From IMG/VR virus record IMGVR_UViG_3300032167_000022: 32,771 nt of DNA; one strand, given 5' to 3'. Source of the DNA: a virus. The notes beneath the pieces are model-generated. The model worked only from the letters and a program-made list of their open reading frames with translations, searched no databases and was not told where the DNA came from. A program made the translations under genes and the position numbers. Shown one piece after another: positions 75-17,298 of the stretch; position 1 is the stretch's first letter; every line of letters begins with the position of its first letter.

Positions 75-281
75 TTATCTCGGACAATAACCGACCCACA
101 TGCCCCATCCGGTAATCGTAAATCTTTTATTGCTCATTCTCTTGATGTTTGCGTGAAGTGTCTCACTTGCTTCATCAAACATTTCAAAAGGCTTATACCC
201 GAGCGGTTCGTCTGTTTCAAAAGTTCTTGACATAATGTATTCGGTATCCTTATAGCGGAATGCAATCGTAACAGTTCTCAT
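75..281 (-). CDS. early hypothetical protein (68 aa), standard code, stop TAA
   Basis: Complete ORF with a conserved upstream UTR (agaaagagagataaaaaATG) behind promoter P1. Confidence 0.5.
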   Translation of the reverse strand: MRTVTIAFRYKDTEYIMSRTFETDEPLGYKPFEMFDEASETLHANIKRMSNKRFTITGWGMWVGYCPR

Positions 282-339
282 TTTTTATCTCTCTTTCTAC
301 GGTTTTTATTGAGGTTGTCCGTTCCTCTGTTCTGTATAT

Positions 340-368
340 ATTATACCACACTTTTGCGTATTTGTCAA
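340..368 (-). promoter_or_regulatory. early promoter P1: TTGACA, 17-nt spacer, TGgTATAAT (extended -10) on the minus strand
   Basis: tgtcaa at 363-368 and attata at 340-345 on the plus strand give TTGACA and TATAAT in reverse complement. The spacer is exactly 17 nt with TGg before the -10. There is an AT-rich UP-like region upstream. Confidence 0.7.
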
Positions 369-400
369 TACCTTTTTGAAAATTTATTTATGAATTTTTT

Positions 401-434
401 GTTAAGAAAAAAAGCTGTTTATAAAACAGCTTTT
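401..434 (-). terminator. rho-independent terminator (possibly bidirectional) for gene 631..419
   Basis: Stem aagctgtt/aacagctt with a 5-nt loop, followed by TTTTTTTCTT on the minus strand. The stop codon of the gene lies inside the hairpin. Confidence 0.55.
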
Positions 435-631
435 AATCTATAACAACAAATTCCATCTTCATTTTTTCTTTCAACTGCGTTATGCTTTTCCAAATGCCAC
501 AGGAAATCATTAACAATACCAACATCACTAAAGAATGTTGTACATCTTGCGATAAGATACATTTTTGACTTCCATTCATAAGACAATTCTTCTGCTACCT
601 TTGCCATAATTTCACTCATGCGATTTTCCAT
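419..631 (-). CDS. early hypothetical protein (70 aa), stop TAA
   Basis: ORF behind P2 with RBS agaaagaggtaaacaaaATG. Confidence 0.55.
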   Translation of the reverse strand: MENRMSEIMAKVAEELSYEWKSKMYLIARCTTFFSDVGIVNDFLWHLEKHNAVERKNEDGICCYRLKAVL

Positions 632-689
632 TTTGTTTACCTCTTTCTACCGTTCTTTTGGGCTTCCGGTTTTCCTCTTGTCTATATAT

Positions 690-718
690 ATTATACCATA
701 CTTTTACGCATTTGTCAA
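690..718 (-). promoter_or_regulatory. early promoter P2 (TTGACA-17-TGgTATAAT)
   Basis: tgtcaa at 713-718, attata at 690-695, spacer 17 nt. It is near-identical to P1. Confidence 0.7.
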
Positions 719-735
719 TAGGTTTTTGAAAATTT

Positions 736-775
736 CTTAAAAAAATTTTGAGAGGGTTTTCGGGAACCCTCTCGC
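736..775 (-). terminator. hairpin gagagggtt-ttcggg-aaccctctc downstream of gene 1102..785
   Basis: 9-bp stem with a 6-nt loop. The minus-strand tail is AAAATTTTTTT. The stem is related to the hairpin at 47-68. Confidence 0.4.
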
Positions 776-784
776 TTTAATTAA

Positions 785-1102
785 CTAAAATGTTGCTTCG
801 TTCTGTAAAATGTGCCTGCGCTTTTGTATATTCTTTTTGATTACGTTTGATAACCATTGCGGCGTATTGTTGTAAGTCACATAATTAGCCTGCTTATATT
901 CTGCTATGTACATTGTGATTATCATGCCTTCTTCGTCCTTGACTATCAGAACGCCTGTGTCTGTCAAGCAAGATACTGTCGGTGTGGTGGATGAATGGCG
1001 TTTAAATACGATGTTGCCATATCCAATAGTAGTGGCGATGTAAGCCACGCGGTCAAGGCGGTCTGCGCGCAGATGGTGGGAGATGTTTACTCTTTCAGTC
1101 AT
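785..1102 (-). CDS. early hypothetical protein (105 aa); the stop codon is TAG
   Basis: The ORF track extends to 1180, but its first 26 residues are translated promoter/UTR (CGIIYTE is tgtggtataatatatacag). The real start is the ATG at 1102, preceded by aaagaggtaaataaaATG. The stop at 785-787 is TAG, followed by ttaattaa. Confidence 0.55.
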   Translation of the reverse strand: MTERVNISHHLRADRLDRVAYIATTIGYGNIVFKRHSSTTPTVSCLTDTGVLIVKDEEGMIITMYIAEYKQANYVTYNNTPQWLSNVIKKNIQKRRHILQNEATF

Positions 1103-1151
1103 TTTATTTACCTCTTTCTTTTGGAAGGTGTGTTGTTTTCTTTCTGTATAT

Positions 1152-1180
1152 ATTATACCACATTTTTGTGTATTTGTCAA
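1152..1180 (-). promoter_or_regulatory. early promoter P3 (TTGACA-17-TGgTATAAT)
   Basis: tgtcaa at 1175-1180, attata at 1152-1157, spacer 17 nt. Confidence 0.7.
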
Positions 1181-1204
1181 TAGTTTTTTGAAAATTTATT
1201 TATG

Positions 1205-1244
1205 AACTTTTTGTAAACAAAAGGTACTGCTTTTCAGCAGTACC
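1205..1244 (-). terminator. rho-independent terminator for gene 1491..1234
   Basis: Stem ggtactgc/gcagtacc, then TTTTGTTTAC on the minus strand. The TGA stop of the gene sits in the loop. Confidence 0.6.
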
Positions 1245-1491
1245 CGCGTCTCATGATTTTCCTTTTTTCTGTTCCGATTATGCGGCAAGCTAACCGCACT
1301 GCGTGCCTGCGCTGGATTCTGATGCTTGCGCTTACCTCTTTGTCGTGCATCCAGTTGTCAAGGGCATCGCGCAATTCCATACGCTTATCTACCAATCTTC
1401 CCCAAATTTCATCATATCTTTCGTCGTAGGGGATGCGGTCAAGCGCATTGTTAATAAGGGTGATTCGGGTGATAGTGTTGATGATTTTCAT
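1234..1491 (-). CDS. early hypothetical protein (85 aa), stop TGA
   Basis: The real start is the ATG at 1491 (cat at 1489-1491 on the plus strand) after the conserved UTR with GAGG RBS. The upstream part of the track ORF is translated promoter. Confidence 0.55.
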   Translation of the reverse strand: MKIINTITRITLINNALDRIPYDERYDEIWGRLVDKRMELRDALDNWMHDKEVSASIRIQRRHAVRLACRIIGTEKRKIMRRGYC

Positions 1492-1551
1492 TGTTTTATC
1501 TCTCTTTCTTTTGGAGGGTGGCTCATTGACTCTCTCCCTCTCTCTGTATAT

Positions 1552-1580
1552 ATTATACCACATTTTAATAGATTTGTCAA
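1552..1580 (-). promoter_or_regulatory. early promoter P4 (TTGACA-17-TGgTATAAT)
   Basis: tgtcaa at 1575-1580, attata at 1552-1557, spacer 17 nt. Confidence 0.7.
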
Positions 1581-1671
1581 GGGGTTTTTTAAACTTTTTT
1601 CAAGAAATTTTCTTGGGGAAAAGCACCTGCGCATTTGGGAGTTTACTAACCCTTTCCCCCTTGACATATAT

Positions 1672-1700
1672 ATTATACCATACTTTGATTGAAAAGTCAA
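1672..1700 (-). promoter_or_regulatory. early promoter P5 (TTGACT-17-TGgTATAAT), in tandem about 120 bp upstream of P4 with no gene between
   Basis: agtcaa at 1695-1700, attata at 1672-1677, spacer 17 nt. Only about 80 nt of non-coding sequence separate it from P4. Confidence 0.6.
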
Positions 1701-1882
1701 TAGGTTTTTGAAAATTTATTTGTAAACAAAATATGAACTAATTTCGGGATACTGCTACCGAACAAATGTTTGTGCCTTACTTTAACAATTTATCACTTTA
1801 CCATACTAAAGCGCGAATTCGGGCCCCCACTACACCTGTCGTATGGAACGGATTGTTAAAACTTTAACAAGCGCATCCAGTA

Positions 1883-1913
1883 GACAAAAGAAAGATGGAG
1901 ATTACTCTCCATC
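1883..1913 (-). terminator. rho-independent terminator for gene 2060..1902
   Basis: Stem gatggaga/tctccatc with a 4-nt loop, followed by TTTCTTTTGTC on the minus strand. The TAA stop is in the loop. Confidence 0.6.
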
Positions 1914-2060
1914 TGTCAGATTCATTGCTATTACGAACATGTTCCAGTCTGCGTGCTGTGGTTCGCTCGTGTTGTTGTCTGCGATAATGTCAAGGTAGCT
2001 TACACCTGCCCAAATAGCAAGGGCGATTAAAATGGCGTTGATGGCTTTAAGAATTTTCAT
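1902..2060 (-). CDS. early small membrane/secreted peptide (52 aa: MKILKAINAILIALAIWAGVSYL...)
   Basis: ATG at 2060 after the conserved UTR. It has a hydrophobic N-terminal segment. The upstream part of the track ORF is translated promoter. Confidence 0.5.
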   Translation of the reverse strand: MKILKAINAILIALAIWAGVSYLDIIADNNTSEPQHADWNMFVIAMNLTDGE

Positions 2061-2118
2061 TGTCTTTGTATCCTTTCTTTGAGAGGGTTTGTTTTTTCTT
2101 TTCCCTTTCTCTATATAT

Positions 2119-2147
2119 ATTATATCATATTTTAATAGATTTGTCAA
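2119..2147 (-). promoter_or_regulatory. early promoter P6 (TTGACA-17-TGaTATAAT)
   Basis: tgtcaa at 2142-2147, attata at 2119-2124 with tca after it, spacer 17 nt. Confidence 0.7.
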
Positions 2148-2204
2148 TAGTTTTTCTTCAATTTAATTGTAAACGATTTATTAACATCGTTAAAACTTTA
2201 ACAA

Positions 2205-2245
2205 GCGCAGGCATTAGATAAGCAAGCATTTGTGATGCTTGCTTA
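2205..2245 (-). terminator. long imperfect hairpin (about 14 bp) downstream of gene 2473..2252
   Basis: tagataagcaagcat-ttgtg-atgcttgcttaatcta. There is no clear T tract on the minus strand. Confidence 0.35.
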
Positions 2246-2251
2246 ATCTAT

Positions 2252-2473
2252 TCACGCGAGACAAGCGTACAGAGTGAACTTCCTTTCTTCTACTTTGATG
2301 ATGCCTTCATCAGCCATCTCGCGCAGTACGTCAATCACGCGCAGACCATCGCCATTATAGCCCTTGATACCTGCTCTTGCCATAATGGTGTAGTAGGGAA
2401 GCCATTCAGCCATTACCGCATTTCTATTCTGAATCTTGTTTCTAATGTTCATCTTGCTTACGTTGATACCCAT
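2252..2473 (-). CDS. early hypothetical protein (73 aa), stop TGA
   Basis: ATG at 2473 (cat at 2471-2473) preceded by aagaaagaggtaacacaaATG. Confidence 0.55.
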   Translation of the reverse strand: MGINVSKMNIRNKIQNRNAVMAEWLPYYTIMARAGIKGYNGDGLRVIDVLREMADEGIIKVEERKFTLYACLA

Positions 2474-2546
2474 TTGTGTTACCTCTTTCTTTTGGTTGTT
2501 TTTGTTTTGTGCGCTCTCTGTCGCGCTCTTGTTTCTTTCTGTATAT

Positions 2547-2575
2547 ATTATACCACATTTTTGTGCATTTGTCAA
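2547..2575 (-). promoter_or_regulatory. early promoter P7 (TTGACA-17-TGgTATAAT)
   Basis: tgtcaa at 2570-2575, attata at 2547-2552, spacer 17 nt. Confidence 0.7.
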
Positions 2576-2660
2576 TAGGTTTTCGCAATATTTTTTTATT
2601 AACTTTTTATGAACATCGTTAAAACTTTAACAAACTCATACCACTGGACTACCAACAGCA

Positions 2661-2695
2661 GACAAAGAAAAGATGTGAGGTTTTACCCTCACATC
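2661..2695 (-). terminator. rho-independent terminator for gene 2859..2689
   Basis: Stem gatgtgagg/cctcacatc with a 6-nt loop, followed by TTTTCTTTGTC on the minus strand. The TGA stop is inside the hairpin. Confidence 0.6.
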
Positions 2696-2859
2696 CATCC
2701 AAGCTCTGCGCTTACTTCATTGAACTGCTCTTCATTGACATCGTACTCTACGTACTTTCTGCCATTCTCTTCGTAGAAGAAGAAGTTGCGCATCTCTACT
2801 CTGCCGCTTTCATAAATTTCATTAAACCACGCTTCACTCGTTGCTACTGTAATCATCAT
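2689..2859 (-). CDS. early hypothetical protein (56 aa, MMITVATSEAWFNEIYESGRVEMRNFFFYEENGRKYVEYDVNEEQFNEVSAELGWM)
   Basis: ATG ATG at 2859-2854 after the conserved UTR. The track ORF start at 2937 is translated promoter. Confidence 0.5.
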   Translation of the reverse strand: MMITVATSEAWFNEIYESGRVEMRNFFFYEENGRKYVEYDVNEEQFNEVSAELGWM

Positions 2860-2919
2860 TTTTTTAATCTCTCTTTCTGCCTTTCTTTTGGGCTTCAGGC
2901 TTTCCTCTGTTCTGTATAT

Positions 2920-2948
2920 ATTATACCACACTTTCATGGATTTGTCAA
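2920..2948 (-). promoter_or_regulatory. early promoter P8 (TTGACA-17-TGgTATAAT)
   Basis: tgtcaa at 2943-2948, attata at 2920-2925, spacer 17 nt. Confidence 0.7.
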
Positions 2949-3038
2949 GGGGTTTCGCAAAATTTTTTTATATTTTTTTTGTAAACAGATTATGAACATT
3001 GTTAAAAACTTAACTTACAAAGTTGGGAGAACTTTGCA

Positions 3039-3227
3039 CTTTAGTATGGTAAAGCGTTAATACATCGTTAAATCTTTAACAATCTCGCTGCCACCAAGCT
3101 CTACAAATGTATGTTAATTTTTTAACAATCTCGCTGCCGCAGCTCTACAAATGTATGTCAATCCAATTGCAGAGATTCGCTGAACTATGCAAATACTTTA
3201 ACGCTTTAGCACTTTACCATACTAAAG
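3039..3227. repeat. structured non-coding element: an inverted repeat (cactttagtatggtaaagcg at 3039-3058 and ctttaccatactaaagt at 3211-3227) flanking two tandem copies of about 40 bp (3076-3115 and 3121-3158)
   Basis: Direct reading shows an IR arm of 17-20 nt and near-identical direct repeats tttaacaatctcgctgcc..gctctacaaatgtatgt. A third copy of the arm (ctttaccatactaaag) sits at 1796-1811. Confidence 0.6.
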
Positions 3228-3269
3228 TATTCGCTACATTAGAGCGAGAGGGTTTGTACATAGTTTGTT

Positions 3270-3405
3270 AATAGTTTATTCACAATTAAATGTTAACAAA
3301 TTATTTACAATTTGTTCATAATTTGTTCACAATTATAGGAAATAAATTGTTAACAGTTTGTTCACAATTTGTTCATAAAAAATTTACAAATTGTTTACAA
3401 TTGCG
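3270..3405. repeat. iteron cluster: TTCACAATT three times, TGTTCATAA twice, TTTACAA(A)TT three times and TTGTTAACA twice; candidate replication origin or multi-site operator
   Basis: Short AT-rich direct repeats counted in a 135-bp non-coding stretch with no ORF. Confidence 0.5.
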
Positions 3406-3437
3406 AAAAACGGCTCGCTTCAGCCGCCAGCGAGCCG
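3401..3437 (-). terminator. rho-independent terminator ending the 4860-to-3648 minus-strand operon
   Basis: GC-rich 9-bp stem cggctcgct/agcgagccg with a 9-nt loop, followed by TTTTTCGCAA on the minus strand. Confidence 0.65.
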
Positions 3438-3576
3438 AGGAATGACAGGGTGCGATTATAGGGTTGCGCGTAGTCCTGGAAAAATCCGACAATAGGTTTT
3501 GTATAGTAGAGGGGGGTGGTTTTCGTGAAAAATTTTTTTTGAATTTGATAAAATGATTTGGTCTGGACAAAAATCC

Positions 3577-3650
3577 CCTAAAGTCATTTTTTAATTTCAA
3601 ATTACGAGAAACCCTAAAGTCATTTTGTAATTTCAAATCACGAAAAATCA
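3577..3650. repeat. two tandem 36-bp direct repeats (ccctaaagtcatttt.taatttcaaat.acga.aaa)
   Basis: Direct reading. These repeats are what generate the spurious 92-aa ORF 3373..3651 (LKLQNDFRVSRNLKLKNDFRGF). Confidence 0.6.
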
Positions 3651-3782
3651 ATCCTTCTTCTTCCTATTACGTTTAGGTTTTTCTCCCCAAATAGCCTCAT
3701 AAATTAAACTTGTACCTTTATTAGTAGCTTTCTGTCTTCTACTTTTTGCCATACTTCCCAAAATTCCACTCGGTTTTTTCAT
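3648..3782 (-). CDS. small, very basic protein (44 aa: MKKPSGILGSMAKSRRQKATNKGTSLIYEAIWGEKPKRNRKKKD), translationally coupled
   Basis: Its ATG overlaps the TAA of the upstream gene (TAAAATG), and GGAGG lies 8 nt upstream. The ORF track does not list it because it is under 60 aa. Confidence 0.35.
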   Translation of the reverse strand: MKKPSGILGSMAKSRRQKATNKGTSLIYEAIWGEKPKRNRKKKD

Positions 3783-3783
3783 T

Positions 3784-4218
3784 TTAATTCCTCCATCCAC
3801 AACATCCTTCCGTACCGCAAGCGTCGCATTGCGCTTCTACTTCACTTTTACAAGGTCTCCAATCTTCCACAGATTTCTTTGCGCTTTCTTCTTTCATATA
3901 TTTATCCCTATACTCAACAAATTCATCCCAGCCGCATTCATTAAAAATTTTAGTTGCTATAAATAATTCCCGCATACTATTATAAAAATGATATTCCTCC
4001 GGAGGAGGTTTAATTTCATTAGTCCTTACAAGTTTCCATCCTTTTACTTTCTTTCCAAATAATTCAGTTTCTGTTTCAACACCTTTAAACTCTTTATAAC
4101 TATAAGGATTTTTAATTCCATTAGCTTGCGCGTACTCATTAAATTCCATTTCATAAATAAGTATTGCCGCACTCACACCACTTATAACAATAGGTTCGTT
4201 AAAATCTGTCATCATCAT
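3784..4218 (-). CDS. early hypothetical protein (144 aa) with a C-terminal Cys cluster (CKSEVEAQCDACGTEGCCGW)
   Basis: Complete ORF with a TAA stop, in an operon behind P9. Confidence 0.55.
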   Translation of the reverse strand: MMMTDFNEPIVISGVSAAILIYEMEFNEYAQANGIKNPYSYKEFKGVETETELFGKKVKGWKLVRTNEIKPPPEEYHFYNSMRELFIATKIFNECGWDEFVEYRDKYMKEESAKKSVEDWRPCKSEVEAQCDACGTEGCCGWRN

Positions 4219-4249
4219 CCCATCCTTCCGGCATAAAAATATCTAAAAT

Positions 4250-4342
4250 CTATACTAACAAATTATTAAAAACTAAAATGGGGCCGCCCAGTATAAAGAC
4301 CGCATAAATAGCCCATTTAGCTCCTTCATTTTCAATCTTCAT
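4250..4342 (-). CDS. possible small hydrophobic peptide (30 aa, MKIENEGAKWAIYAVFILGGPILVFNNLLV) in a 187-nt intergenic gap; stop is TAG
   Basis: ATG at 4342 with a weak RBS. Support is only the ORF and the unusually long gap. Confidence 0.2.
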   Translation of the reverse strand: MKIENEGAKWAIYAVFILGGPILVFNNLLV

Positions 4343-4404
4343 AATTTCATCTAAATAATTACTAAACATTAAAAATGAGCAAATCATCCATCCAATAATA
4401 ATAA

Positions 4405-4797
4405 TTAAAGCTCCCACACGAATGTACCATCCTTTAATTTATAAACATTAGCATGTAAGTTAATAGCTTCTCCACCTTCAAAATCATATTCTTTTAAATT
4501 CTTTTCTTCCAAAACTTCTTTTAATACTAAACTATCTTTTGGTAAACATAATGTAACTCCAATAACATTATGGTCATCATACATAGAAGTATCAACTATA
4601 TTATATTGCGCTTTTTCATTAATAACATTTACTGAAGTTACTAAAGTAACATCATTATATTCTTCAACAATTAATTTTTTCATTCTATCTCTTAATGAGC
4701 GTGAGCTATCTTTTCTTTCAATAACAGCAATAATAATTGTTACAATTATCATACCCGCAGTTACAATTCCCAATAATAATAAAGCATCTAAAAACAT
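4405..4797 (-). CDS. early membrane-anchored protein (130 aa; N-terminal TM helix LLLLGIVTAGMIIVTIIIAVI)
   Basis: ORF with RBS ttgaggtgcgcaaATG behind P9. Stop is TAA. Confidence 0.55.
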   Translation of the reverse strand: MFLDALLLLGIVTAGMIIVTIIIAVIERKDSSRSLRDRMKKLIVEEYNDVTLVTSVNVINEKAQYNIVDTSMYDDHNVIGVTLCLPKDSLVLKEVLEEKNLKEYDFEGGEAINLHANVYKLKDGTFVWEL

Positions 4798-4831
4798 TTG
4801 CGCACCTCAATTTTTTTTATTTTCTATATAT

Positions 4832-4860
4832 ATTATATAAAAAATTTTTAAAAAAGTCAA
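4832..4860 (-). promoter_or_regulatory. early promoter P9 (TTGACT-17-TATAAT) for the 4797-to-3648 operon
   Basis: agtcaa at 4855-4860, attata at 4832-4837, spacer 17 nt. Confidence 0.6.
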
Positions 4861-4878: not shown

Positions 4879-4907
4879 TTGACAAAAGAAAAATTTTATG
4901 GTACAAT
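4879..4907 (+). promoter_or_regulatory. plus-strand promoter (TTGACA-17-TGgTACAAT), divergent from P9 and heading the structural/packaging module
   Basis: TTGACA at 4879-4884, TACAAT at 4902-4907 preceded by tgg, spacer 17 nt. GGAGG and an ATG lie 29 nt downstream. Confidence 0.6.
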
Positions 4908-4935: not shown

Positions 4936-5994
4936 ATGGTTAAATTAGATTATTCTTTACAAACTCCAGAAGAAAGAGTTAAATTAGTAGAATAGATTTT
5001 AGCCGAGGACCCAAACCCCAGTGAAAAATATTCAGAAGTATTGGCTGACTATTTAATTCTTTGTATGGAGAAACAAGAAAGAAAAGAAAAGAAAATTCTT
5101 ACTGAAAACCGAATGGCGACAGTAAATAAAAGAGAAACTTCTTATGAAGGTCTTGTTTCCCAATTAGAAAATGGCGAAGATGGTATATATAATTTAATGT
5201 CAGATAATAAATAGTAGATTTTTCAACCAAAAGTAACAATAACAAAAAAAGATTTAGAAGAGATTCCTGATTTGCGCCAATTGCGCGACGCCATAGAAAT
5301 CTGGGAGGCAAAACTAAAAACCGCCGAAGGAAAAGATGCTTTTACTATTAAAAAAGCTTTAATTGAATTGCGGAAAGACCAATATATTATTAAAAATGCG
5401 TTCAGATGCCCTGTTGAATTAAATAAGATTACTCGCTCAAAATCTTATATTAAATTAGATGATACAACTTGCGAATTTGATGATGATGGATATCCTATTC
5501 CTTCTGGAATTTCATTAATGAATCCTGAAGTTGTTTCAGCAATTTTATGTAATTATTCAAAATTAAAGCAAGATAGTTGGGATTATTTTGAAGGAGATAC
5601 TTGGTATCTTATGAATGATTTTGACCATTTGAGTAATGTGGCTTTAAAAGAATATCCATTATATGAACGATTAGTTGATTTAAAAATTGATGGACTTTAG
5701 AATGCGGATATCCAAATAAAATTAGAAGAAGAATTTGGAATTAAACATAGTCTAGAATATATATCTAGTTTATGGCGTAATAAAATTCCTAAATTAATTG
5801 CGTCAACTGCGGAAGATGAATTTTTAGATTGGTATTATTTAGAAGTTGAAAAAGGAAAATATAAAAAATGTAGTAGATGCGGACAGATTAAATTAGCTCA
5901 TAATAAATATTTTAGCAAGAATAAAACAAGCCGAGATGGCTTTTACAGTATTTGTAAATGCTGCCGGAATGCTAAAACAAAGAAAGGAGAATAA
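4936..5994 (+). CDS. first gene of the plus-strand module, about 352 aa, 4 in-frame TAG; C-terminal zinc-binding motif CSRCGQIKLAHNKYFSKNKTSRDGFYSICKCC (zinc ribbon or HNH-like?)
   Basis: RBS GGAGG, ATG at 4936. Frame 1 is continuous to the TAA at 5992-5994 if TAG is read as sense; it includes a TAG TAG doublet. The ORF track fragment 5272..5700 is in the same frame. Confidence 0.5.
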
Positions 5995-5997: not shown

Positions 5998-7191
5998 ATG
6001 CCTGACCATTATTATTGTGAAAAATGTAATAGAACATTAGCAGCTGAAGAATTTTATACTTCAAATAATTTAGAAAAATATCCTAATGATGGTAAGTTAA
6101 ATCAATGTAAAAAATGTATTACAATGCATGTAGATAATTGGAATCCAGACACTTATCTATGGATTTTACAAGAAGTTGATGTCCCATATGTTCCAGAAGA
6201 ATGGGATAAACTTATGACATCATATATTAAAGACAATAAAAAAATTACAGGTATGACTATTTTAGGTAGATATCTATCTAAAATGAAATTAAAACAATTT
6301 AGAGAATATCGTTGGAAAGACAACGAATTTATACAAAATTTAAAAAATAAAAAAATTGAAGAAACAATGAAACGTTAGGGATATAGTGCGGTTGAAATAG
6401 CAGAAGCTATTAATAAATCAACCTTTACTATGCCTGTGGAAGAATTGCGCGAACCAGAACCTAAAGCAATTGGCTCTCAAGTGGAAGAAGAACCTGAAGA
6501 TTATTTTGCTAAATAGTCTGGTGCTGATGACTCTTTCTTTGATGATGATTTAACAGAAGAAGATAGAACATATTTAAGATTAAAATGGGGAAAAGCATAT
6601 AAACCAGAAGAATGGATTAAACTAGAACAACTTTATAATGAAATGATGGAATCTTATGATATCCAAACCGCAGGTCATATTGATACTTTAAAATTAATTT
6701 GTAAAACCTCATTAAAAGCAAATCAATTAATTGATATTGGTGATGTAGAAGGATTCCAAAAAATGAGTAAAGTTTATGATAACTTAATGAAGAGTGGTAG
6801 ATTTACTGCGGCCTAGAATAAAGCAGAATCTGGTGAGTTTGTTGACTCTATTGCTGAACTAGTTGAAATATGTGAAAAAGAAGGTTTTATTCCTAGATTT
6901 TATACAGATACACCAATGGATAAAGTTGATGAAACTTTAGCTGATTTAAAAGGATATACACGCACATTAGTCACTGAAGAAATGAATTTAGGTAATTTAA
7001 TTGAAAGTGCTGTTAAAGAAATGGCTAAGCAAGAAGCAAAAGAAGAAGATGAAGATGTTGAAGATGAACTTGATTTAGATGAAATTGAATAGTTAAAAGA
7101 TGAAGATTTTGAAGATTATAATCAATTTTTAGATGAAGATATAGAAGCTGACGCGGATTTCTTAAAGCAATTAACTAATGAGGGTAATTAA
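5998..7191 (+). CDS. about 397-aa protein with an N-terminal Cys4 zinc ribbon (CEKC...CKKC) and an acidic C-terminus, immediately upstream of terminase; candidate small terminase subunit or DNA-binding protein
   Basis: RBS aaaggagaataatttATG. Frame 1 is continuous through 4 TAG to the TAA at 7189-7191. The assignment rests on position and the zinc ribbon only. Confidence 0.45.
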
Positions 7192-7193
7192 TT

Positions 7194-8936
7194 ATGGCTT
7201 TATAGGATTTATTAAATTTATCTGAACAAAGAAAAAAAATTGGTTTATCTGAAGAAAGAGTAAATGCTATTATTCCAATAGTGCGTCAATACATTGCCTT
7301 TTGGAGAGAATATCCTGATATGTTTGTGGATTTTCTAGTTAGAGGTAATAGAACTGAAATAAAAGATGGCGAATTTAAATTTTATTTTTATTAGCGAGTA
7401 TTTTTGCGTGCGGCAATGCGACATCAGTATCTGTACGCAGTATTTCCTCGCGCCTATTCAAAATCATTCTTATCAGTAATGGTGTTAATGTGTAAATGTA
7501 TTTTGTATCCTCGTTGCAAATTGTTTGTTACTTCTGGAGGTAAGGAACAAGCTGCTGGTATCATTAAAGAAAAAGTTCAAGAAATTTGTACTCTTATTCC
7601 TGCGTTTAAAAATGAAATAGACTGGACAAGAGGTAAAACTCTTGAAGGAAAAGATTATTGTAAATATGTTTTTACAAATGGTTCATATTTTGATAATATC
7701 GCAGCGAGAGAAAGCTCTCGTGGTAAACGTCGTCATGGTGGTTTAATTGAGGAATGTGTTGGTGTTGATGGTACTATTCTTTCTGAAGTAATTATTCCTA
7801 CAATGAACGTTTCTCGTATGTGTATGGATGGTTCAACGCATCCAGAAGAATAGTTAAATAAGTCATAGATTTATGTAACTACAGCTGGATGGAAAAATAC
7901 ATTCCCTTATGATAAGCTCATTCAATTACTAGTATGGCAAATTGTTAAACCAGAAAAATCTATGATACTTGGTGGTACATATCGTATTCCAGTATTAGTT
8001 AAATTACTTGATAAAAACTTTATCCGTGATTTAAAAATGGATGGTACATTTAATGAGATGTCTTTTGACCGTGAATATGAAAGTAAATGGTCTGGTTCGG
8101 TTGAAGATGCTTTCTTTAATTCAGAAGTTTTTGATAGAAATAGAATTTTAAAATAGCCTGAATATGAAGCATCAGGGCGCTCAAGCAAATCTAGTTTTTA
8201 TATATTATCTGCGGATGTTGGTCGTAAAGGTTGTGATACTGTAGTATGCGTATTTAAGGTAACACCATAGCCGCAAGGCTCTTCCATAAAAACTTTAGTA
8301 AATTTATTTACTTTATCAGATGCGCATTTTGAAGATTAGGCTATTAAATTAAAAAGATTATTTTATAAATTTAATGCTCGTAGATTAATAATTGATGCTA
8401 ATGGTATGGGTATTGGTTTATTAGATTATTTAGTAAAGCCTCAAATTGACCCAGATACTGGCGATACTTTCCCTGATTTTGGTGTTTATAATGATGAAGA
8501 AGGATATTATAAAAAATATAGAACAGTAAATTGCGAACAAGATGCTGTTTATCAAATAAAAGCAAATGCTCCTATAAATACTGAAGCTCATGCTAATGCG
8601 CGTTCTCAATTATCTTCTGGAAAAGTTAAAATGCTTATAGATGAACGTGTGGCAAAAGTTAAATTAATGGGAACAAAATTAGGTTAGAATATGAAGCCTG
8701 AAGAAAGGGCAGAATATTTAAAACCATTTACTTTAACTTCCATATTAAGAGAGGAATTAATGAACCTTCGTGAAGAAAATGAAGGTGTTAATATTATACT
8801 TAAATAGGTAAACCGAGGGGTTAGAAAAGATAAATTTTCTGCCTTTGAATATGGTCTATATTATATTAAACAAGAAGAAGATAATAAAAAGAAGAAAAAG
8901 AAATTTAATGCTAAAGAGTGGATGTTTTTAAGTTAA
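7194..8936 (+). CDS. terL: terminase large subunit (about 580 aa, 9 in-frame TAG)
   Basis: RBS gagggt. The translation gives FYFY*RVF aligned with the T4 gp17 Y-Q-R adenine-binding motif, a deviant Walker A (PRAYSKS), YVTTAGW (motif III), and nuclease-domain aspartates (ILSADVGRKG, LIIDANGMGIGL). It ends at a TAA. Confidence 0.8.
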
Positions 8937-8948
8937 GGGGGGAGATAA

Positions 8949-9305
8949 TTGCGGGCATCTCGTGGTGAAATCAAAATAGAAGAAATTTTGACAGAAGCAG
9001 AATTACATTTTAAAATGGAATATATTTTTCCAGATTTAAAAAGTCCAAATGGTCGTCCTTTGAGATTTGATTTTGTTGTTTTTGATGATGATGGAAATAT
9101 TGATTTTATTATTGAATATTAGGGAAAATAGCATTATGAAGCTAGTCAAAAATTTGGTGGTAAAAAAGGTCTTTATCAACAACAATATAATGATAATCAA
9201 AAAAGAAGATTTTGTGCTTTACATGATTTTAAATTAATTGAAATCCCTTATACAGATGAACATCTTATTACTTATGATTATTTAATGCATTTAGCAGGAT
9301 ATTAA
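8949..9305 (+). CDS. DUF559/Vsr-like small endonuclease-fold protein (about 118 aa; RFDFVVFDDDGNIDFIIEY*GK*HY)
   Basis: Frame 0 ORF after RBS aagggggga. I propose a TTG start at 8949; the alternative is the in-frame ATG at about 9012. The motif resembles the DUF559 consensus (lvIEvDG.qH). Confidence 0.45.
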
Positions 9306-9322
9306 GTAAAGGAGGTGGAATT

Positions 9323-10936
9323 TTGGATAATAAAGAATTAACGCGAAATGAACAAATTCATGCTAAAGGTTTTAACATTGATGGCGGATATAGAGATTAT
9401 GCTTGTATAGATAGTGAGACTGACTTTAAACGTATAAAAGTTGGAGTTAAGCAATTAGATGACGCAGTTTTAAATTTAGGTTCATTAAAATCTTGTTTGC
9501 CACCAAACCATAAATTCGCAGATAAAAAATATATCTTTAAAATGATTATGGATAGAAATATAGAAGAATTGAGAAATATATCTAATTTCTATTATAATAT
9601 GAATGGTATATATGAAAGAGTTTGTAATTATTTCGCTTAGTTATATAGATATGACTGGTATGTTGTTCCAGAAGTAATTGATGATAGTATTAAAGAAGAT
9701 AAAATATTGAAAGATTTTTCTAAAGTGCTGAATTATTTAGATAATTCATATGTTAGAAAAATTTGTCAAGATATTGCTTTAGAGATTATGAAAAATGGAT
9801 GTTATTATGGATATCTTGTTCCAAGTTCAGATAGCATTATTCTACAACAATTGCCGATTGAATATTGCCGCTCTCGCTATAGCGTCGCAGGAATGCCAGC
9901 CATTGAATTTAATATGAAATTTTTTGATACGTTTAGAGATATGAATTATCGTTTAAAAGTATTAAATTTATTTCCCGATGAATTCAAAAAAGGTTATTTA
10001 CTTTATAAGCAAGGAAAATTACCCGCTGAAGTGTAGGGAGATAGTAGTGGTGGATGGTATTTATTAGATACAGATAGTGCTGTTAAATTTAATTTTAATG
10101 GTAGTGATATTCCTCCATTTGTAAATGCTATTGGGGCTTTATTGGATTTAGATGCTGCTTAGGATTTAGACCGTCGTAAGTAGATGTAGAAATTGTTAAA
10201 AATTATTGTTCAAAAACTTCCATTAGATAAAAATGGTGATTTAATTTTTGATGTAGATGAAGCAAGAGATATTCACAATAATGGTGTATAGATGTTAAGA
10301 CGTGCTGTTGGTGTTGATGTTTTAACAACTTTTACTGATGTTGATTCAATTGATTTATCTGATAAAAATACATCTACAACAACCGATGATTTGGAAAAAG
10401 TAGAAAGAGCATTATTTAATGCTTTAGGTATTTCTTAGAATTTATTTAATACTGATGGAAATTTATCATTGGAAAAATCTATTTTAAATGATGAATCAGT
10501 AGTGAGAAATCTATTATGTTAGTTTAGTATTTTCTTTGACAAAGTTATTGATAAAAAATATTCAAATGGAAAAAAATATAAATTTAAATTTTATATGTTA
10601 GAAACCACTCAATATAATTATAAAGATTTAGCTAAATTATACAAAGAATAGACGCAAATTGGATATTCAAAAATGTTACCGCAAATAGCTTTAGGTCATT
10701 CTCAAAGCTTTATTTTAAATTCAGTACATTTTGAAAATGAAGTATTACATTTAAGTGAAATTATGATTCCTCCTCTAATGAGTTCAACTATGAGTAGTGA
10801 AGATGTTTTAGGTAATAAAAAATCTACAACTAGTTCCAATTCTAATTCTACTTCTGGAAATGCGGTTGGCCGACCGGAGAAAGCAGATTCAGAAAAAAGT
10901 GAAAAGACAATTCAAAATAAAGAGTCAATGAATTAA
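9323..10936 (+). CDS. portal protein (about 537 aa, about 12 in-frame TAG)
   Basis: TTG start after AAAGGAGGTGG. One frame is continuous, joining track ORFs 9323, 9707 and 10673. It lies downstream of terL and has a Ser/Thr-rich acidic C-terminus. I did not verify family membership. Confidence 0.5.
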
Positions 10937-10947
10937 GGAGGATAATA

Positions 10948-12579
10948 ATGAAACATAAAAGTATTAAATTAGATACAGGAGTTGAATTAATTAATATCAC
11001 TCCTTTTAATCCATTAATTTCTAAATGTTAGATTAAGGTTTGTTATGTAAGTGATGAACCTAACAGAAATAAAAGTATAATTACTAAAGAAGTTGCTAAA
11101 TAGATTGCTAATAGTCTTCCAGGCAGTCCTATTGTTGGTTATTATAACGAACACAAAGAAGACTTTGAAGAACATAATAGAATTATTGAAATTTCAAATG
11201 GATAGTTTAAAATTAAAGATACAACTAGACCATATGGATTTGTTGATTTAGGAGCAAAAGTATGGTTTCAGAAATTTTTAGATGATGATACCACTGAAAG
11301 AGAATATTTAGTAACTGAAGGATGGCTGTGGACTGGTCAATATCCTGAATGCCAACGAGCAATTGATGAAGGAAATAATCATTCTATGGAATTAGATGAA
11401 GATTATTTAAATGCTTTTTGGACGAAAGATAGTAATGGAAAACCTTAGTTTTTTATTATAAATGAAGCAATTATTTCAAAACTTTGTATGTTAGGCGAGG
11501 ATAATGAACCTTGTTTTGAAGGTTCAAATATTACCGCGCCAGATTTAACATTCTCATATGGAGATAATTTTAAAGAACAACTTTTCTCTATGATGAATGA
11601 AATAAAAGAATTATTAAATGAAGGAGGAAAAGAAGTGTTTACTAGATACGCTGTAGAAATCGGTGACGCTTTATGGAGCAGTCTTTATAGCTACCTTGAA
11701 AAAACATATCCAGATGGACAGTATTGTTCTGTATATCGTATTGAAGGTATTTATGAAGAGAATGGTCAAAAGTTTACTATTCTTCAACATCGTGCTGATT
11801 TAAAATATTTCCGTTTAAATTTCTCTTTGGATGAAAGTAATGGATTTGTTCCATCAGACACTTTTGTTGAGGTAACAAAGACTTATACTCCATCTGAACA
11901 GCCTCAGTTCGCTTTGGCTGATATTGAAGCTTATGAAGCTGAATATGCCTCAAATCAGAAAAATTCTTCTGAAGAAGAGGACAAAAATGATAAAGATGAA
12001 ACAAACAATTCTGATAATAATTCAGAAGGTGAAAAAGCACCTGAAGATAATGAAACTTTCGCAAAGAAAGATGATGAAGAGGAAGAAAAATGTCCTAAAT
12101 GCGGCAAACCTGTAAAGGAATGCGAGTGCGAGGATGAAGAAGAAGAGGATAAGAAAAAGAAATATTCTCTTGAAGAAATTCCTGAATATGTAGAACTTCA
12201 AAATACTTATGCTCAATTAAAGAGTGATTATGATGCTCTTGTACTTGAAAAAGAAAATCTTGAAGCGCAAATTAAACCATTATCTGAATTTAAAGCTAAT
12301 GCTGATAAAAAAGAAAAAGAAGCAATGATTGCTAGTTTCTATATGCTTTCTGATGAAGATAAAGCTGATGTTATTACCAATATTGATACTTATTCTTTGG
12401 ATGAAATTGAAGCAAAGCTTGCTATTATTTGTGTTCGTAACAAGGTTAGTTTTAATCTTGAAGATGATAAAGGTGTTGAAACACCACCTACAACTTATGA
12501 CCTAAACAGTGATGATAATAATGATAATGTTCCTGCTTGGGTTAAACGTGCAATGTCTGTTGCAGAAAATATGAAATAA
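10948..12579 (+). CDS. prohead protease and/or scaffolding protein (about 543 aa: N-terminal domain with 5 TAG, then an acidic coiled-coil C-terminal half with no TAG and a CPKCGKPVKECEC motif)
   Basis: RBS ggaggataataATG. The frame is continuous to track ORF 11488..12579. Its position between portal and capsid and its acidic coiled-coil composition support the call. Confidence 0.45.
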
Positions 12580-12608
12580 TAATAAAAATTTAAAGGAGGA
12601 CATATATA

Positions 12609-13427
12609 ATGTATTCACCTGGAATGGAAAAATGGTTCAAGAATAATTATGCTAGCCAGGCAAAATACGTTCAGTTTGGTTTTGGTCAGGTTGAACCTAA
12701 CCATCTTTCTGCTCAACGTACCGGCCAGATTTATGGCCAATTGCCTGCGGCTGCTGATATTGCTATTTTAGAGCAAGGCCAGTTTGTAAAGTATGACTAT
12801 GCGAAGGGTGTAGTTAATTTTGAGGGTGCTGGCGAATGGATGCTCGTTTATAATGAAATTAAGTTATATCGTGAAAATCAGGCAGATTGCGAATTCGCAA
12901 TGTTAAAAGATAATTATCAGGCTCGTGTTTATAGCCCATTTGGTTACGGTCTTGATAAGGACGGCAATCAGGCTCCTGATATTGTCTGGGACAAACAGTC
13001 TCGTTATTATAATGGTGTTGATGCTGAAGGTAATGACTCCATTACTCTTAATGATAAGACTTATAAGTTTGATGATGTAACTGCTGATGGTACCACTATT
13101 ACTGCTGCTGATGGTACTGAAAAGCATATTTCTGCTGACCCTTATGAGATGAATCTCACTAGTGACCCTTATCATATTGAAGGTCCTTATAAGGAAGCTA
13201 TGATGCCCGAAGGCACCACAATGGTTCCTCGCGTATTTAAGACTAATGTTGGTGATATTTTCACTACTAACACTGTAAATGCTGACACTCTTGCTGTTGG
13301 TGATATTCTTACTCCTGGTGCTAAGGGTATCCTTGAGGTTGGCGAAGGCGATATGAAGTGGCAGGTTGTTAAAGTTTATACAATGCCTGATAGACAGCAA
13401 GGCGTTAAGATTATGCGTATTGCGTAA
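12609..13427 (+). CDS. capsid-associated structural protein (272 aa; decoration or auxiliary capsid protein?), TAG-free, higher GC and different codon usage
   Basis: RBS aaaggaggacatatataATG. Complete ORF; Thr/Gly/Asp-rich. Confidence 0.5.
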   Translation: MYSPGMEKWFKNNYASQAKYVQFGFGQVEPNHLSAQRTGQIYGQLPAAADIAILEQGQFVKYDYAKGVVNFEGAGEWMLVYNEIKLYRENQADCEFAMLKDNYQARVYSPFGYGLDKDGNQAPDIVWDKQSRYYNGVDAEGNDSITLNDKTYKFDDVTADGTTITAADGTEKHISADPYEMNLTSDPYHIEGPYKEAMMPEGTTMVPRVFKTNVGDIFTTNTVNADTLAVGDILTPGAKGILEVGEGDMKWQVVKVYTMPDRQQGVKIMRIA

Positions 13428-13444
13428 GAAAGGAGTGAAGAATA

Positions 13445-14560
13445 ATGGCTTTAGATAGACAAAATTTAGTTGATTTGATGAAGCAGGTAGCAAAAGCTGA
13501 CCCTTCCGCTCCTACTGCTTATGCGTATGGTGATAAGACTCTTAGCTATGATGCTTTAAATGAAACTTTGCGTCAAGAATTAAATGAACTTGCTGGTTCA
13601 TATTCTGACTATCGTGAAAATAAAAATCTTATTTTCGCAGTAATTGAAGAAACTCTTGATGAAGTTCTTCCTAAGAAGGTTGAACAGAAATATGAGCAGT
13701 TTGCTGAAGTTAAGCAGTTTGCTCAAGGTGATAAGCCTGCGTTTCGCCGCAAGGTTGGTTCCAGCAAACGTGCTAAGCAGTTTATTACTCGTGTTGGTTT
13801 AAATGGTATTTATGAAGTATTTAAGCTTGCTCCTAATACCGATGAAGTAATTGAAGTTCGTACTTCTGCTGTCGGTGGAGCTGCTCAAATCGGATTTGAG
13901 GAGTTCCTTGATGGTCGTGTAGACTTCGCAGAAGTTACTCGCATCGTTATGGAGGGTATTGATGAACTTATTTATAAGGAAATCGCGCATGCTCTTAAAG
14001 CTTCTGTAAATCAGTTACCACCAGCAAATAGAGTTGCTGCTCCTGGCTTTGATGAGGCTGCTTTTGACAAACTTCTTACTATTGCTAATGCTTATGGTAC
14101 ACCTACTATTTATTGTACTTATGAATTTGCTGTTCAGATGATTCCATAGGAAGCTTGGAGATATACTGAGGCAATGAAGACTGAGCTTTGGAATACTGGT
14201 CGTCTCGCTTCTTATAAGGGACATAAGGTAGTTATTCTTGAGCAAGGCTTTGAGGATGAAACTAATAGTCGCAAAGTTATTGACCCAGGTTATGTATGGA
14301 TTATTCCTGCTGGCGCTGATAGCAAGCCTGTAAAGGTTGCTTTTGAAGGTCAGACTCTTGTTGATGAATAGGTTAATAAGGACCGTTCTCGTGAAATTCA
14401 GGTTTATAAGAAGGTTGGCGTTGTTGCTATGTTGGCAAATAACATTTGCTGCTATGTTGATACTGCTCTTCTTGGTGACCTTGATACTTGGCATCTTGAT
14501 GGTGTAACCGGTAAGGTTGCTACTTATGATGGCCGTCTTGATGGTTCTTTAAAGGCGTAA
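13445..14560 (+). CDS. major capsid protein candidate (371 aa, only 2 TAG)
   Basis: RBS aaggagtgaagaataATG. It joins track ORFs 13445 and 14174 through TAG. A strong terminator follows it, as is typical for a major capsid gene. The residue pattern is reminiscent of HK97-fold capsid proteins, but this is not verified. Confidence 0.5.
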
Positions 14561-14596
14561 TTAATAATTTAAAATTAAATATATATAAATAAACAT

Positions 14597-14640
14597 GGGG
14601 GAGAATGGGGATGTTCCCCTTCTCCCTTATATTTATTAAT
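14597..14640 (+). terminator. rho-independent terminator after the capsid gene
   Basis: GC hairpin ggggagaatgggga-tgt-tccccttctccc followed by ttatatttatt. Confidence 0.6.
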
Positions 14641-14662
14641 GGAGATAAAGGAGATAAATAAA

Positions 14663-15226: not shown

Positions 15227-15248
15227 TTAATAGATAGGAGGCGAAGAG

Positions 15249-17269: not shown

Positions 17270-17298
17270 TATTGTTTAGAGTAAAAGGAGAATTAATT

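What the first reader, a model, noticed from the sequence alone, without database searches (positions are those of the whole stretch)
75..4860. The genetic code is partitioned by strand and timing: the early module uses the standard code, the late module is recoded
All eight or nine minus-strand early genes are complete ORFs with no internal TAG, and they stop at TAA or TGA. One of them (1102..785) stops at TAG itself. If TAG were read through there, the protein would gain a 16-residue tail (QLIKARGFPKTLSKFF) running into its own terminator hairpin. So the early proteins can be made by an unmodified host, while every late protein requires amber suppression. This fits a model in which the code change acts as a translational timer that withholds structural and lysis proteins until the phage's suppressor is expressed.
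Basis: inference. Interest (0 to 1): 0.8.

Follow-up and report, generated by a model that had tools for sequence, protein, structure and literature searches.

The report
Standard-code early genes in amber-recoded phage
This is the early-gene block of a large gut phage that reads the stop codon TAG as glutamine in its virion genes but keeps its first-expressed genes readable by an unmodified host, which is a real and clean example of a pattern already described for such phages.

Summary
The core observation holds. The minus-strand block 75-4860 has 10 (perhaps 11) small genes, 827 codons, and no in-frame TAG. One gene (1102-785) ends at TAG, and read-through would add exactly QLIKARGFPKTLSKFF. 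The plus-strand genes carry 153 sense TAGs in 8836 codons, which align best with Gln in standard-code homologues.

Nearly every early gene is its own unit: a consensus extended -10 sigma-70 promoter, a Shine-Dalgarno site and a terminator. In a 100%-identical contig the module runs about 14 kb further left. In total: 37 genes, 3622 codons, 0 sense TAG.

Three claims need correcting:
- Not every late protein needs suppression. Three of 19 are TAG-free.
- Strand is not the rule. The next same-strand operon carries 4 sense TAGs.
- No suppressor tRNA was found in the window or in about 34 kb of flanking sequence.

The "translational timer" idea is the published hypothesis for recoded phages (Borges et al.; Peters et al.). 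The lineage is related to phAss-1, which is already reported as code 15. The pattern fits a timer and a passive constraint equally well. Verdict: a real feature, a new member of a known kind, of modest interest.

The parts
75..281 (-). Early gene, 68 aa, TAA stop, no TAG
   Evidence: The exact protein is found on 22 or more metagenome contigs.
340..368 (-). Consensus promoter: TTGACA, 17-nt spacer, TATAAT, with TG extension
   Evidence: 12 of 12 matches. Member of repeat family D1/D3.
419..631 (-). Early gene, 70 aa, TAA stop. Its terminator is at 434-410.
690..718 (-). Consensus extended -10 promoter
785..1102 (-). Early gene, 105 aa, ending at TAG 787-785. Read-through to TAA 739-737 would add QLIKARGFPKTLSKFF.
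750..773 (-). Intrinsic terminator hairpin plus T-run, lying inside the potential read-through tail
1152..1180 (-). Consensus extended -10 promoter
1234..1491 (-). Early gene, 85 aa, TGA stop. The real start is ATG 1491 after the SD site; ATG 1563 lies inside the promoter. Terminator at 1245-1222.
1552..1580 (-). Consensus extended -10 promoter
1600..1700 (-). Promoter (1700-1672, TTGACT) followed by a roughly 65-nt transcript with no ORF. Candidate small RNA unit.
   Evidence: Similar units occur at L002 10736-10980.
1902..2060 (-). Early gene, 52 aa, TAA stop. Promoter at 2147-2119, terminator at 1914-1893.
2252..2473 (-). Early gene, 73 aa, TGA stop. Promoter at 2575-2547.
2689..2859 (-). 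Early gene, 56 aa, TGA stop. Promoter at 2948-2920, terminator at 2696-2671.
2949..3647 (.). Non-coding repeat region. It holds 11-bp-periodic TTTGTTCA(C/T)AA repeats (3273-3400), 2 x 36-nt repeats (3576-3647), other direct repeats, and a GC-rich hairpin near 3437-3412.
3648..3782 (-). Small basic ORF, 44 aa, TGA stop. Last gene of the low-GC operon.
3784..4218 (-). Gene, 144 aa, TAA stop. The upstream extension to ATG 4329 across 3 TAGs does not look coding.
4250..4387 (-). Possible 45-aa membrane ORF ending at TAG 4252-4250. Uncertain.
4405..4797 (-). First gene of the low-GC operon, 130 aa with an N-terminal transmembrane segment, TAA stop
4832..4860 (-). Leftward promoter: TTGACT, 17-nt spacer, TATAAT
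4879..4907 (+). Rightward host-type promoter (TTGACA, 17-nt spacer, TACAAT, with TG) in front of the sigma-like gene
4936..5994 (+). Sigma-factor-like gene with 4 sense TAGs (4993, 5212, 5215, 5698). First gene of the recoded rightward module.
   Evidence: (phrog_5767, 9e-49). No Pfam or PDB support.
5998..32771 (+). Recoded virion module: YonG-like gene, terminase (7194-8936), HNH-like gene, portal, capsid-like gene (13445-14560), tail genes, tape measure (21744-31664, 78 TAGs) and the next tail gene. Module total from 4936, including the sigma-like gene: 153 sense TAGs in 8836 codons.
21050..21078 (+). Perfect host-type promoter inside the late module, upstream of TAG-containing genes. A second one starts at 31720.

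Best explanation
The block is the promoter-proximal 4.8 kb of an early, host-takeover-like module of about 18.5 kb. It belongs to a large siphovirus that reads TAG as Gln (code 15). The genome is at least about 140 kb; one carrier contig is 186.5 kb. The phage is related to phAss-1 and, more distantly, to Enterococcus phage EF1 and SPbeta-like phages.

Shown:
- Nearly every early gene is a separate unit. Each has a near-identical consensus promoter (TTGACAAAT, then TGnTATAATATATACAGA downstream), a strong Shine-Dalgarno site, a short ORFan gene and an intrinsic terminator.
- None of the 37 genes of the module has a sense TAG, and two of them use TAG as their stop.
- The rightward virion module is unreadable unless TAG is decoded, most likely as Gln.

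Inferred:
- Host RNA polymerase with the primary sigma factor transcribes the early units immediately, and host ribosomes with RF1 translate them in the standard code.
- A suppressor tRNA(CUA) accumulates later. It was not located here. By synteny it should lie in a tRNA array downstream on the same strand.
- TAG is therefore tolerated only in genes whose products are needed after that point. This gives the observed gradient of 0% (early), 0.17% (next operon) and 1.7% (late).
- TAG is avoided in three late genes, which by their position are probably among the most abundant virion proteins, perhaps because suppression is incomplete.

The data do not decide whether the phage also uses this as a lock or timer on late proteins, or whether the pattern is only a passive constraint.
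For: - Recoding: ORF restoration under TAG-as-sense. Single alignment segments to standard-code homologues span several TAG positions.
- TAG = Gln: at 149 residues aligned to TAG sites in four standard-code phages, Q is enriched 4.7-fold. The homologues have Q at every one of two terminase TAG sites. The substitution profile fits Q best.
- Early architecture: 9 perfect or near-perfect promoters on the minus strand in 4.9 kb, against 2 perfect matches on the plus strand in 28 kb. Repeat family D1/D3 covers 8-9 cassette copies. Terminators follow the genes. No PHROG or Pfam hits, as expected for ORFan early genes.
- Extension: L002/L176, a contig that is near-identical over its 1.4-kb overlap with the window, carries 20 more promoters in 11.3 kb and 27 more TAG-free genes.
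- Gradient.
- Sense TAGs in the next operon: the full-length genes fit the tight overlapping spacing of the operon, and a Pfam YunG-like match extends upstream of the standard-code start.
- Comparative: phAss-1 has 40 consensus promoters on its minus strand against 3 on its plus strand. Its three tRNA-Sup(CTA) genes are on that same strand, and its TAGs are concentrated in plus-strand virion genes (PMC10607447). A distant relative has a sigma-70-family gene followed by a tRNA array on the early strand.
Against: - No suppressor tRNA was found in the window, in 10 kb to its right, or in about 24 kb to its left.
- 'Early' rests on promoter type only; there are no expression data.
- Host-type promoters also precede TAG-containing genes (4879, 21050, 31720, and the promoter at 12811 in L176). 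Promoter class therefore does not map cleanly onto code class.
- The host is unknown.
- The left extension comes from another contig, not the window itself. That contig is near-identical over the 1.4-kb overlap.
Confidence: 0.8

Rival explanations
1. Active translational timer or lock. In-frame TAGs were selected because they withhold virion, lysis and regulator proteins until the suppressor is expressed. Recoding would then be a primary timing device and not only a tolerated drift.
For: - Host-type consensus promoters sit directly upstream of TAG-bearing genes: 4879 before the sigma-like gene with 4 TAGs, 21050 before the tape-measure unit, and 31720. Transcription alone may therefore not keep these genes silent early.
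- In the next same-strand operon the TAGs cluster at codons 13-26, where they would abort translation early.
- Metaproteomics in crAss-like phages is consistent with late-only recoding (PMC9523058).
- The model is stated in bioRxiv 10.1101/2021.08.26.457843.
Against: - Three late genes, probably encoding major virion proteins, carry no TAG, so they are not locked.
- No lysis gene was identified among the recoded genes here.
- A passive constraint predicts the same distribution.
- There are no expression data.
Confidence: 0.35
2. Mosaic origin. The early module was acquired from a standard-code phage or host and has not yet accumulated TAGs. On this view the partition reflects history, not function.
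For: The monocistronic early genes are much richer in GC than the late genes (GC 0.40-0.47 and GC3 0.43-0.59, against GC 0.25-0.31 and GC3 about 0.16). They also prefer CAG over CAA and often use TGA stops.
Against: - The low-GC leftward operon 4797-3648 has late-like composition (GC3 0.20) and is also TAG-free, P = 0.004.
- The promoter cassette is homogenised across about 30 units and recurs in front of TAG-containing operons.
- phAss-1 shows the same strand and promoter organisation.
- TAG-free late genes are also richer in GC, which suggests codon usage linked to expression level rather than foreign origin.
Confidence: 0.1
3. Chance or composition. These short, Gln-poor genes simply happen to lack TAG.
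For: The early proteins have few Gln codons: 12 in 827 codons in the window. The window-only test conditioned on Gln is only P = 0.005.
Against: - With the full module, P = 1e-15 conditioned on Gln and 3e-28 by codon rate.
- Out-of-frame TAGs are at normal density.
Confidence: 0.02
4. The host itself decodes TAG as an amino acid, so no code switch occurs during infection.
For: None directly. The host is unknown.
Against: - Two early genes and one gene in the next operon end at TAG just before a terminator, a promoter or an overlapping start.
- Cultured relatives infect standard-code Firmicutes such as Enterococcus, Brevibacillus and Lactococcus.
- From general knowledge, no bacterium with TAG read as Gln is known.
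Confidence: 0.03

Closest known systems
Alternatively coded (TAG-recoded, code 15) gut phages and the 'standard-code early, recoded late' model (Borges et al., bioRxiv 10.1101/2021.08.26.457843; Peters et al., PMC9523058)
   Same: Only part of the genes carry in-frame TAG. The recoded genes are structural. Genes expected to be early are compatible with the standard code. TAG aligns with Gln. The genome is low in GC and prefers TAA stops.
   Different: The lineage is different: SPbeta-like/phAss-like, not crAss, Lak or the named clades. Here the early module is unusually explicit, with about 30 monocistronic units behind consensus promoters. No suppressor, release-factor or aminoacyl-tRNA synthetase gene was located. 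Recoded lysis genes were not seen.
Phage phAss-1 (OQ749652) and the proposed Phassvirus group (PMC10607447)
   Same: Code 15. A tape-measure gene of more than 3000 aa. TAGs concentrated in virion genes on one strand. The opposite strand is dense in consensus sigma-70 promoters (40 against 3) and carries the tRNAs, including three tRNA-Sup(CTA).
   Different: Portal identity is only 40%. Gene order in the virion module differs. The genome here appears larger. The phAss-1 paper does not analyse promoter architecture or the early/late gradient.
Enterococcus phage EF1 / VRE9 phages, Brevibacillus phage Sundance, and SPbeta-like siphoviruses (standard code)
   Same: Synteny runs sigma-like gene, YonG-like gene, terminase, portal, capsid, tail, then a giant tape measure. 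In EF1 a divergent block of small genes lies to the left.
   Different: These phages use the standard code. Protein identity is 25-58%.
Host-takeover early modules of Bacillus phage SPO1 and pre-early or early regions of T5-like phages (from general knowledge, not tested here)
   Same: Arrays of small ORFan genes, each with strong primary-sigma promoters, strong ribosome-binding sites and terminators, followed by a phage-encoded sigma cascade.
   Different: No sequence similarity was found. In those phages the code is uniform.

Membership tests
Code-15 (TAG read as Gln) recoded phage | In-frame TAGs inside conserved phage genes, with full-length ORFs restored when TAG is read as sense | tested here: met
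Code-15 (TAG read as Gln) recoded phage | TAG positions correspond to Gln in standard-code homologues | tested here: met
   Q is enriched 4.7-fold over 149 aligned residues. At terminase TAG sites 67 and 382 all four homologues have Q. Log-likelihood is best for Q (-388, against -408 for K).
Code-15 (TAG read as Gln) recoded phage | Phage-encoded suppressor tRNA(CUA) or another code-switch factor | tested here: inconclusive
   None was found in the window or in about 34 kb of flanks. The rest of the genome could not be fetched. Some recoded relatives also lack a detectable tRNA-Sup (PMC10607447).
Code-15 (TAG read as Gln) recoded phage | Host uses the standard code | not testable with these tools
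   The host is unknown. Indirect support comes from the early and next-operon genes that use TAG as a stop, and from cultured relatives that infect Firmicutes.
'Standard-code early, recoded late' partition (Borges model) | A subset of genes lacks in-frame TAG, and that subset is the early-expressed class | tested here: inconclusive
   The TAG-free subset is shown. Early expression is inferred from promoter architecture only, with no expression data.
'Standard-code early, recoded late' partition (Borges model) | Recoding enriched in structural and lysis genes | tested here: inconclusive
   Structural genes: yes. No lysis gene was identified in the sequence examined. Three structural genes are TAG-free.
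phAss-1 / EF1 / SPbeta-like large siphoviruses | Homologous and syntenic portal, terminase, YonG-like gene, sigma-like gene and giant tape measure | tested here: met
   (YonG_N).
Proposed genus Phassvirus | High nucleotide identity to phAss-1 (members are 80-86% identical) | tested here: not met
   No nucleotide match to phAss-1 in the one blastn search made, which covered window 1-5000 only. Portal identity is only 40% at the protein level.

The most novel reading that the evidence does not exclude
Amber suppression, not transcription, may be the master switch of the late programme in this lineage. The first rightward gene is a sigma-factor-like protein behind a host-type promoter, and it needs four TAG read-throughs. 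Perfect host-type promoters also sit in front of TAG-rich tail genes. The next same-strand operon carries TAGs at codons 13-26. On this reading the code switch gates the transcriptional cascade itself. A promoter-driven tRNA-like RNA with a 41-nt expanded anticodon arm in the early module might also take part in reprogramming translation.
Probability: 0.15. Interest if true: 0.6.

Novelty: new member of a known kind. Interest (0 to 1): 0.3.

Why it matters
The locus is an unusually legible natural example of two genetic codes in one genome. It has about 37 standard-code units, most of them single-gene, behind near-identical consensus promoters. These sit next to a module with 1.7% sense TAG, with an intermediate operon between the two classes. 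That layout makes the published 'code switch as regulator' hypothesis directly testable in a Firmicute-type phage lineage that has cultured standard-code relatives (the EF1/VRE9 phages). It also matters for annotation. Gene callers using the standard code split the virion genes into fragments and mis-start several early-strand genes. The conceptual point itself is not new.

Tried and rejected
- ARAGORN found no tRNA in the window or in L002, L003, L007-L009, L170, L171, L175, L176 and L178. ARAGORN with intron or relaxed settings gave only spurious calls.
- Rfam at gathering thresholds found nothing in the window or L002.
- An exact 37-mer from the window is absent from IMG/VR.
- A promoter-pattern scan of IMG/VR was first run with the wrong spacer. 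The corrected scan returned only unrelated single hits.
- Two protein-based scans of metagenome contigs found nothing.
- Walking further along the contig was blocked. The 92%-identical relative added only 4 kb with no tRNA.
- PHROG, Pfam and NCBIfam gave no function for any early protein.
- The sigma-like protein has no Pfam, NCBIfam or PDB sequence match. Its label rests on PHROG 5767 and depositor annotations.
- I rejected the extension of gene 4218-3784 to ATG 4329 across 3 TAGs, because the extra translation does not look coding and has no Shine-Dalgarno site.
- I rejected ORFs 1700-1488 and 3651-3373 as genes. The first starts inside a promoter, and the second lies in the repeat-rich region with no Shine-Dalgarno site or promoter.
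- I rejected the tRNA-like RNA as an amber suppressor, because its anticodon region contains no CUA.

Full report
**Observation**

The window is AT-rich (about 30% GC). Its GC skew changes sign near 4900. To the left of that point the genes run on the minus strand; to the right they run on the plus strand.

Under the standard code the plus strand is broken into fragments. With TAG read as sense, its ORF content rises from 4770 to 10426 aa. An unbroken series of genes then appears from 4936 to the window end, including a 3306-aa tape-measure gene with 78 in-frame TAGs.

I read the minus strand directly and set gene starts from promoter, Shine-Dalgarno site and ATG. That gives ten genes: 281-75, 631-419, 1102-785, 1491-1234, 2060-1902, 2473-2252, 2859-2689, 3782-3648, 4218-3784 and 4797-4405. 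There is also a doubtful 45-aa ORF at 4387-4250.

- The ten genes contain 827 codons and no in-frame TAG. Out-of-frame TAGs are present at normal density.
- Stops are TAA x5, TGA x4 and TAG x1.
- The TAG stop belongs to gene 1102-785. Read-through would add exactly QLIKARGFPKTLSKFF before TAA 739-737, across terminator hairpin 773-750.

**Is it more than chance?**

The 19 plus-strand genes hold 153 TAGs in 8836 codons (1.73%). TAG makes up 36% of all Gln-type codons there.

- At that rate the window's early genes should carry 14 TAGs, so P(0) = 5e-7.
- The early proteins are poor in Gln, so a fairer test conditions on Gln codons. That gives P = 0.005.

I then extended the sample. The protein of gene 281-75 is found on many metagenome contigs, and most of them break at the poly(A/T) tract at window 16-43. 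One contig, Ga0257090_10004978 (41 kb), reads through the tract. It is near-identical to the window over the 1.4-kb overlap.

That contig continues the module for about 14 kb. It holds 27 more small genes on the same strand and 20 more perfect promoters in the first 11.3 kb. There is again no sense TAG, and one more gene ends at TAG.

For the whole module (37 genes, 3622 codons), P = 3e-28 by codon rate and 1e-15 conditioned on Gln. This early module passes it.

**What it is**

Nearly every early gene is an independent unit.

- Seven promoters in the window match TTGACA, 17-nt spacer, TATAAT at 12 of 12 positions and have a TG extension. Two more match at 11 of 12.
- The promoters are copies of a 50-90-nt cassette.
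- A conserved AAAGAAAGAG-type Shine-Dalgarno site follows each promoter, and most genes are followed by intrinsic terminators.
- The plus strand has only two perfect matches in 28 kb, plus a TACAAT variant at 4879-4907.
- None of the early proteins matches PHROGs or Pfam.

This is the anatomy of an early, host-polymerase-dependent, host-takeover-like module. The timing is inferred, not measured.

The rightward module encodes a sigma-factor-like protein, a YonG-like protein, terminase, an HNH-like nuclease, portal, an HK97-like capsid protein, tail proteins and the tape measure.

The closest described relative is phAss-1, at 40% portal identity. It is classified in the 'Caudoviricetes code 15 clade' (PMC10607447). 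More distant, standard-code relatives share the synteny: Enterococcus phage EF1 and the VRE9 phages, Brevibacillus phage Sundance, Lactococcus phiL47 and Bacillus vB_BcoS-136.

I aligned the recoded proteins to four of those standard-code phages.

- Gln is the residue most enriched opposite TAG: 4.7-fold over 149 aligned residues.
- At two terminase TAG sites, all four homologues have Q.
- The substitution profile fits genuine Gln better than any of the eight other residues tested.

TAG is therefore most likely Gln.

1. Not every late protein needs suppression. Genes 12609-13427, 14639-15226 and 18642-19676 have no TAG, and the capsid-like gene has 2 in 371 codons. These are the most GC-rich late genes. 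By position they are probably the most abundant virion proteins. This suggests that TAG is avoided where yield matters.

2. Strand is not the rule. Beyond the early module there is a small opposite-strand island whose genes do carry TAGs: 7 in an HTH-like gene and 2 in its neighbour. After the island, the early strand resumes behind the same type of promoter with a tightly packed operon. In that operon three genes have sense TAGs at codons 13-26 and one gene stops at TAG. These TAGs are sense codons for two reasons: the full-length genes fit the tight overlapping spacing of the operon, and a Pfam YunG-like match lies upstream of the only possible ATG start in the standard code. The TAG rate therefore rises in steps: 0 in 3622 codons, then 4 in 2306, then 153 in 8836.

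3. Host-type promoters also precede TAG-bearing genes, at 4879, 21050 and 31720, and at 12811 in L176.

4. No suppressor tRNA was found in the window, in 10 kb to its right (where recoding continues with 28, 6 and 17 TAGs in the next three genes), or in about 24 kb to its left.

The rest of the genome could not be retrieved. The comparative picture is nonetheless consistent.

- In phAss-1, 40 consensus promoters lie on the minus strand against 3 on the plus strand.
- The three tRNA-Sup(CTA) genes of phAss-1 are on that promoter-rich strand. One sits in the tRNA array downstream of the promoter at 107,093. The TAGs of phAss-1 are concentrated in the plus-strand virion genes.
- In a distant relative from a 196-kb contig, the operon homologous to the intermediate one runs into a sigma-70-family gene and then a tRNA array on the same strand.

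**Mechanism**

The best-supported account has four steps.

- Host RNA polymerase and standard-code translation express the early units at once.
- Continued transcription along that strand supplies a suppressor tRNA. This step is inferred.
- TAG is tolerated only in genes needed after that point.
- The virion module cannot yield full-length proteins before then.

The sequence does not settle whether the phage exploits this as a timer or lock. In favour of an active role: the sigma-like gene and tail genes lie behind host-type promoters yet carry TAGs, and the intermediate operon has its TAGs near the N-termini. Against it: the TAG-free late genes, probably the major virion proteins, are not locked, and a passive constraint predicts the same map.

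**Comparison with what is known**

The idea that recoded phages translate early genes in the host's code and then switch to express structural and lysis genes is the explicit model of Borges et al. (bioRxiv 10.1101/2021.08.26.457843, Fig. [quoted passage not shown] It is supported by metaproteomics in crAss-like phages (PMC9523058). Code 15 has also been reported in this broad lineage (PMC10607447).

The present locus is therefore a new member of a known kind. It is an especially clear one, because the early class is marked by about 30 near-identical promoters and because an intermediate class is visible.

**Verdict**

The feature is real. The conceptual novelty is low. Interest is 0.3.

Noticed in passing
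L002 6762-6865 (about 5.5 kb left of the window's left end, on the early strand): A roughly 105-nt tRNA-like RNA driven by an early-type promoter. It has a 7-bp acceptor stem, D- and T-arms and an encoded CCA, but a 41-nt insert where the anticodon loop should be and no CUA. Rfam's tRNA model scores 29.4 bits (gathering threshold 29). ARAGORN does not call it.
   Followed up: partly
window 1600-1700 (-); also L002 10736-10980: Consensus promoters followed by short transcripts of about 50-100 nt with no ORF, before the next promoter. These are candidate early small RNAs.
   Followed up: no
window 2949-3647: A 700-bp non-coding region with 11-bp-periodic TTTGTTCA(C/T)AA repeats (3273-3400), 2 x 36-nt repeats (3576-3647), other direct repeats and GC-rich hairpins. 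Similar repeat blocks recur between early units in L002 (1680-2700, 3540-3830, 5300-5560, 7800-8030, 10440-10730). They could be regulator-binding or origin-like arrays.
   Followed up: partly
window 16-43: A homopolymer A/T tract of about 28 nt just downstream of gene 281-75. Most metagenome assemblies of this phage break here.
   Followed up: partly
window 12609-13427, 14639-15226, 18642-19676: TAG-free late genes with the highest GC and GC3 in the late module. They are probably high-copy virion proteins (18642-19676 sits where the major tail protein is expected). This suggests TAG is avoided where suppression efficiency would limit yield.
   Followed up: partly
window 4879-4907, 21050-21078, 31720-31748 (+): Host-type sigma-70 promoters directly upstream of TAG-containing genes: the sigma-like gene, the tape-measure unit and the next tail gene. 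About 0.1 perfect matches would be expected by chance in 28 kb (my own rough estimate, not computed by a tool).
   Followed up: partly
L176 13300-14607: Three genes of the next same-strand operon carry their only TAGs at codons 13-26, very near the N-terminus. JGI gene calls therefore start them too late.
   Followed up: partly
L171 14025-15537 (opposite strand to the early genes): A small island of four genes converging on the early module. It includes an HTH-like 154-aa gene with 7 TAGs and a 93-aa gene with 2 TAGs.
   Followed up: no
window 9015-9305: A small HNH/homing-endonuclease-like gene (PHROG 9084 and 559) between terminase and portal, itself carrying 2 sense TAGs. In EF1 the terminase is interrupted by an intron with an HNH gene.
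   Followed up: no
L180 16868-21417 (distant relative, 196-kb contig): A bona fide sigma-70-family gene (regions 1.2, 2, 3 and 4) followed by a tRNA array of at least 6 tRNAs on the early strand. By synteny this predicts where the tRNAs of the present phage lie.
   Followed up: partly
window early genes compared with late genes: Early proteins are poor in Gln (about 1.5-2.2% of codons, against 4.8% including TAG in late genes). They prefer CAG over CAA, whereas late genes use CAA far more than CAG. TGA is a frequent stop in early genes (8 of 37) but rare in late genes (1 of 18).
   Followed up: partly
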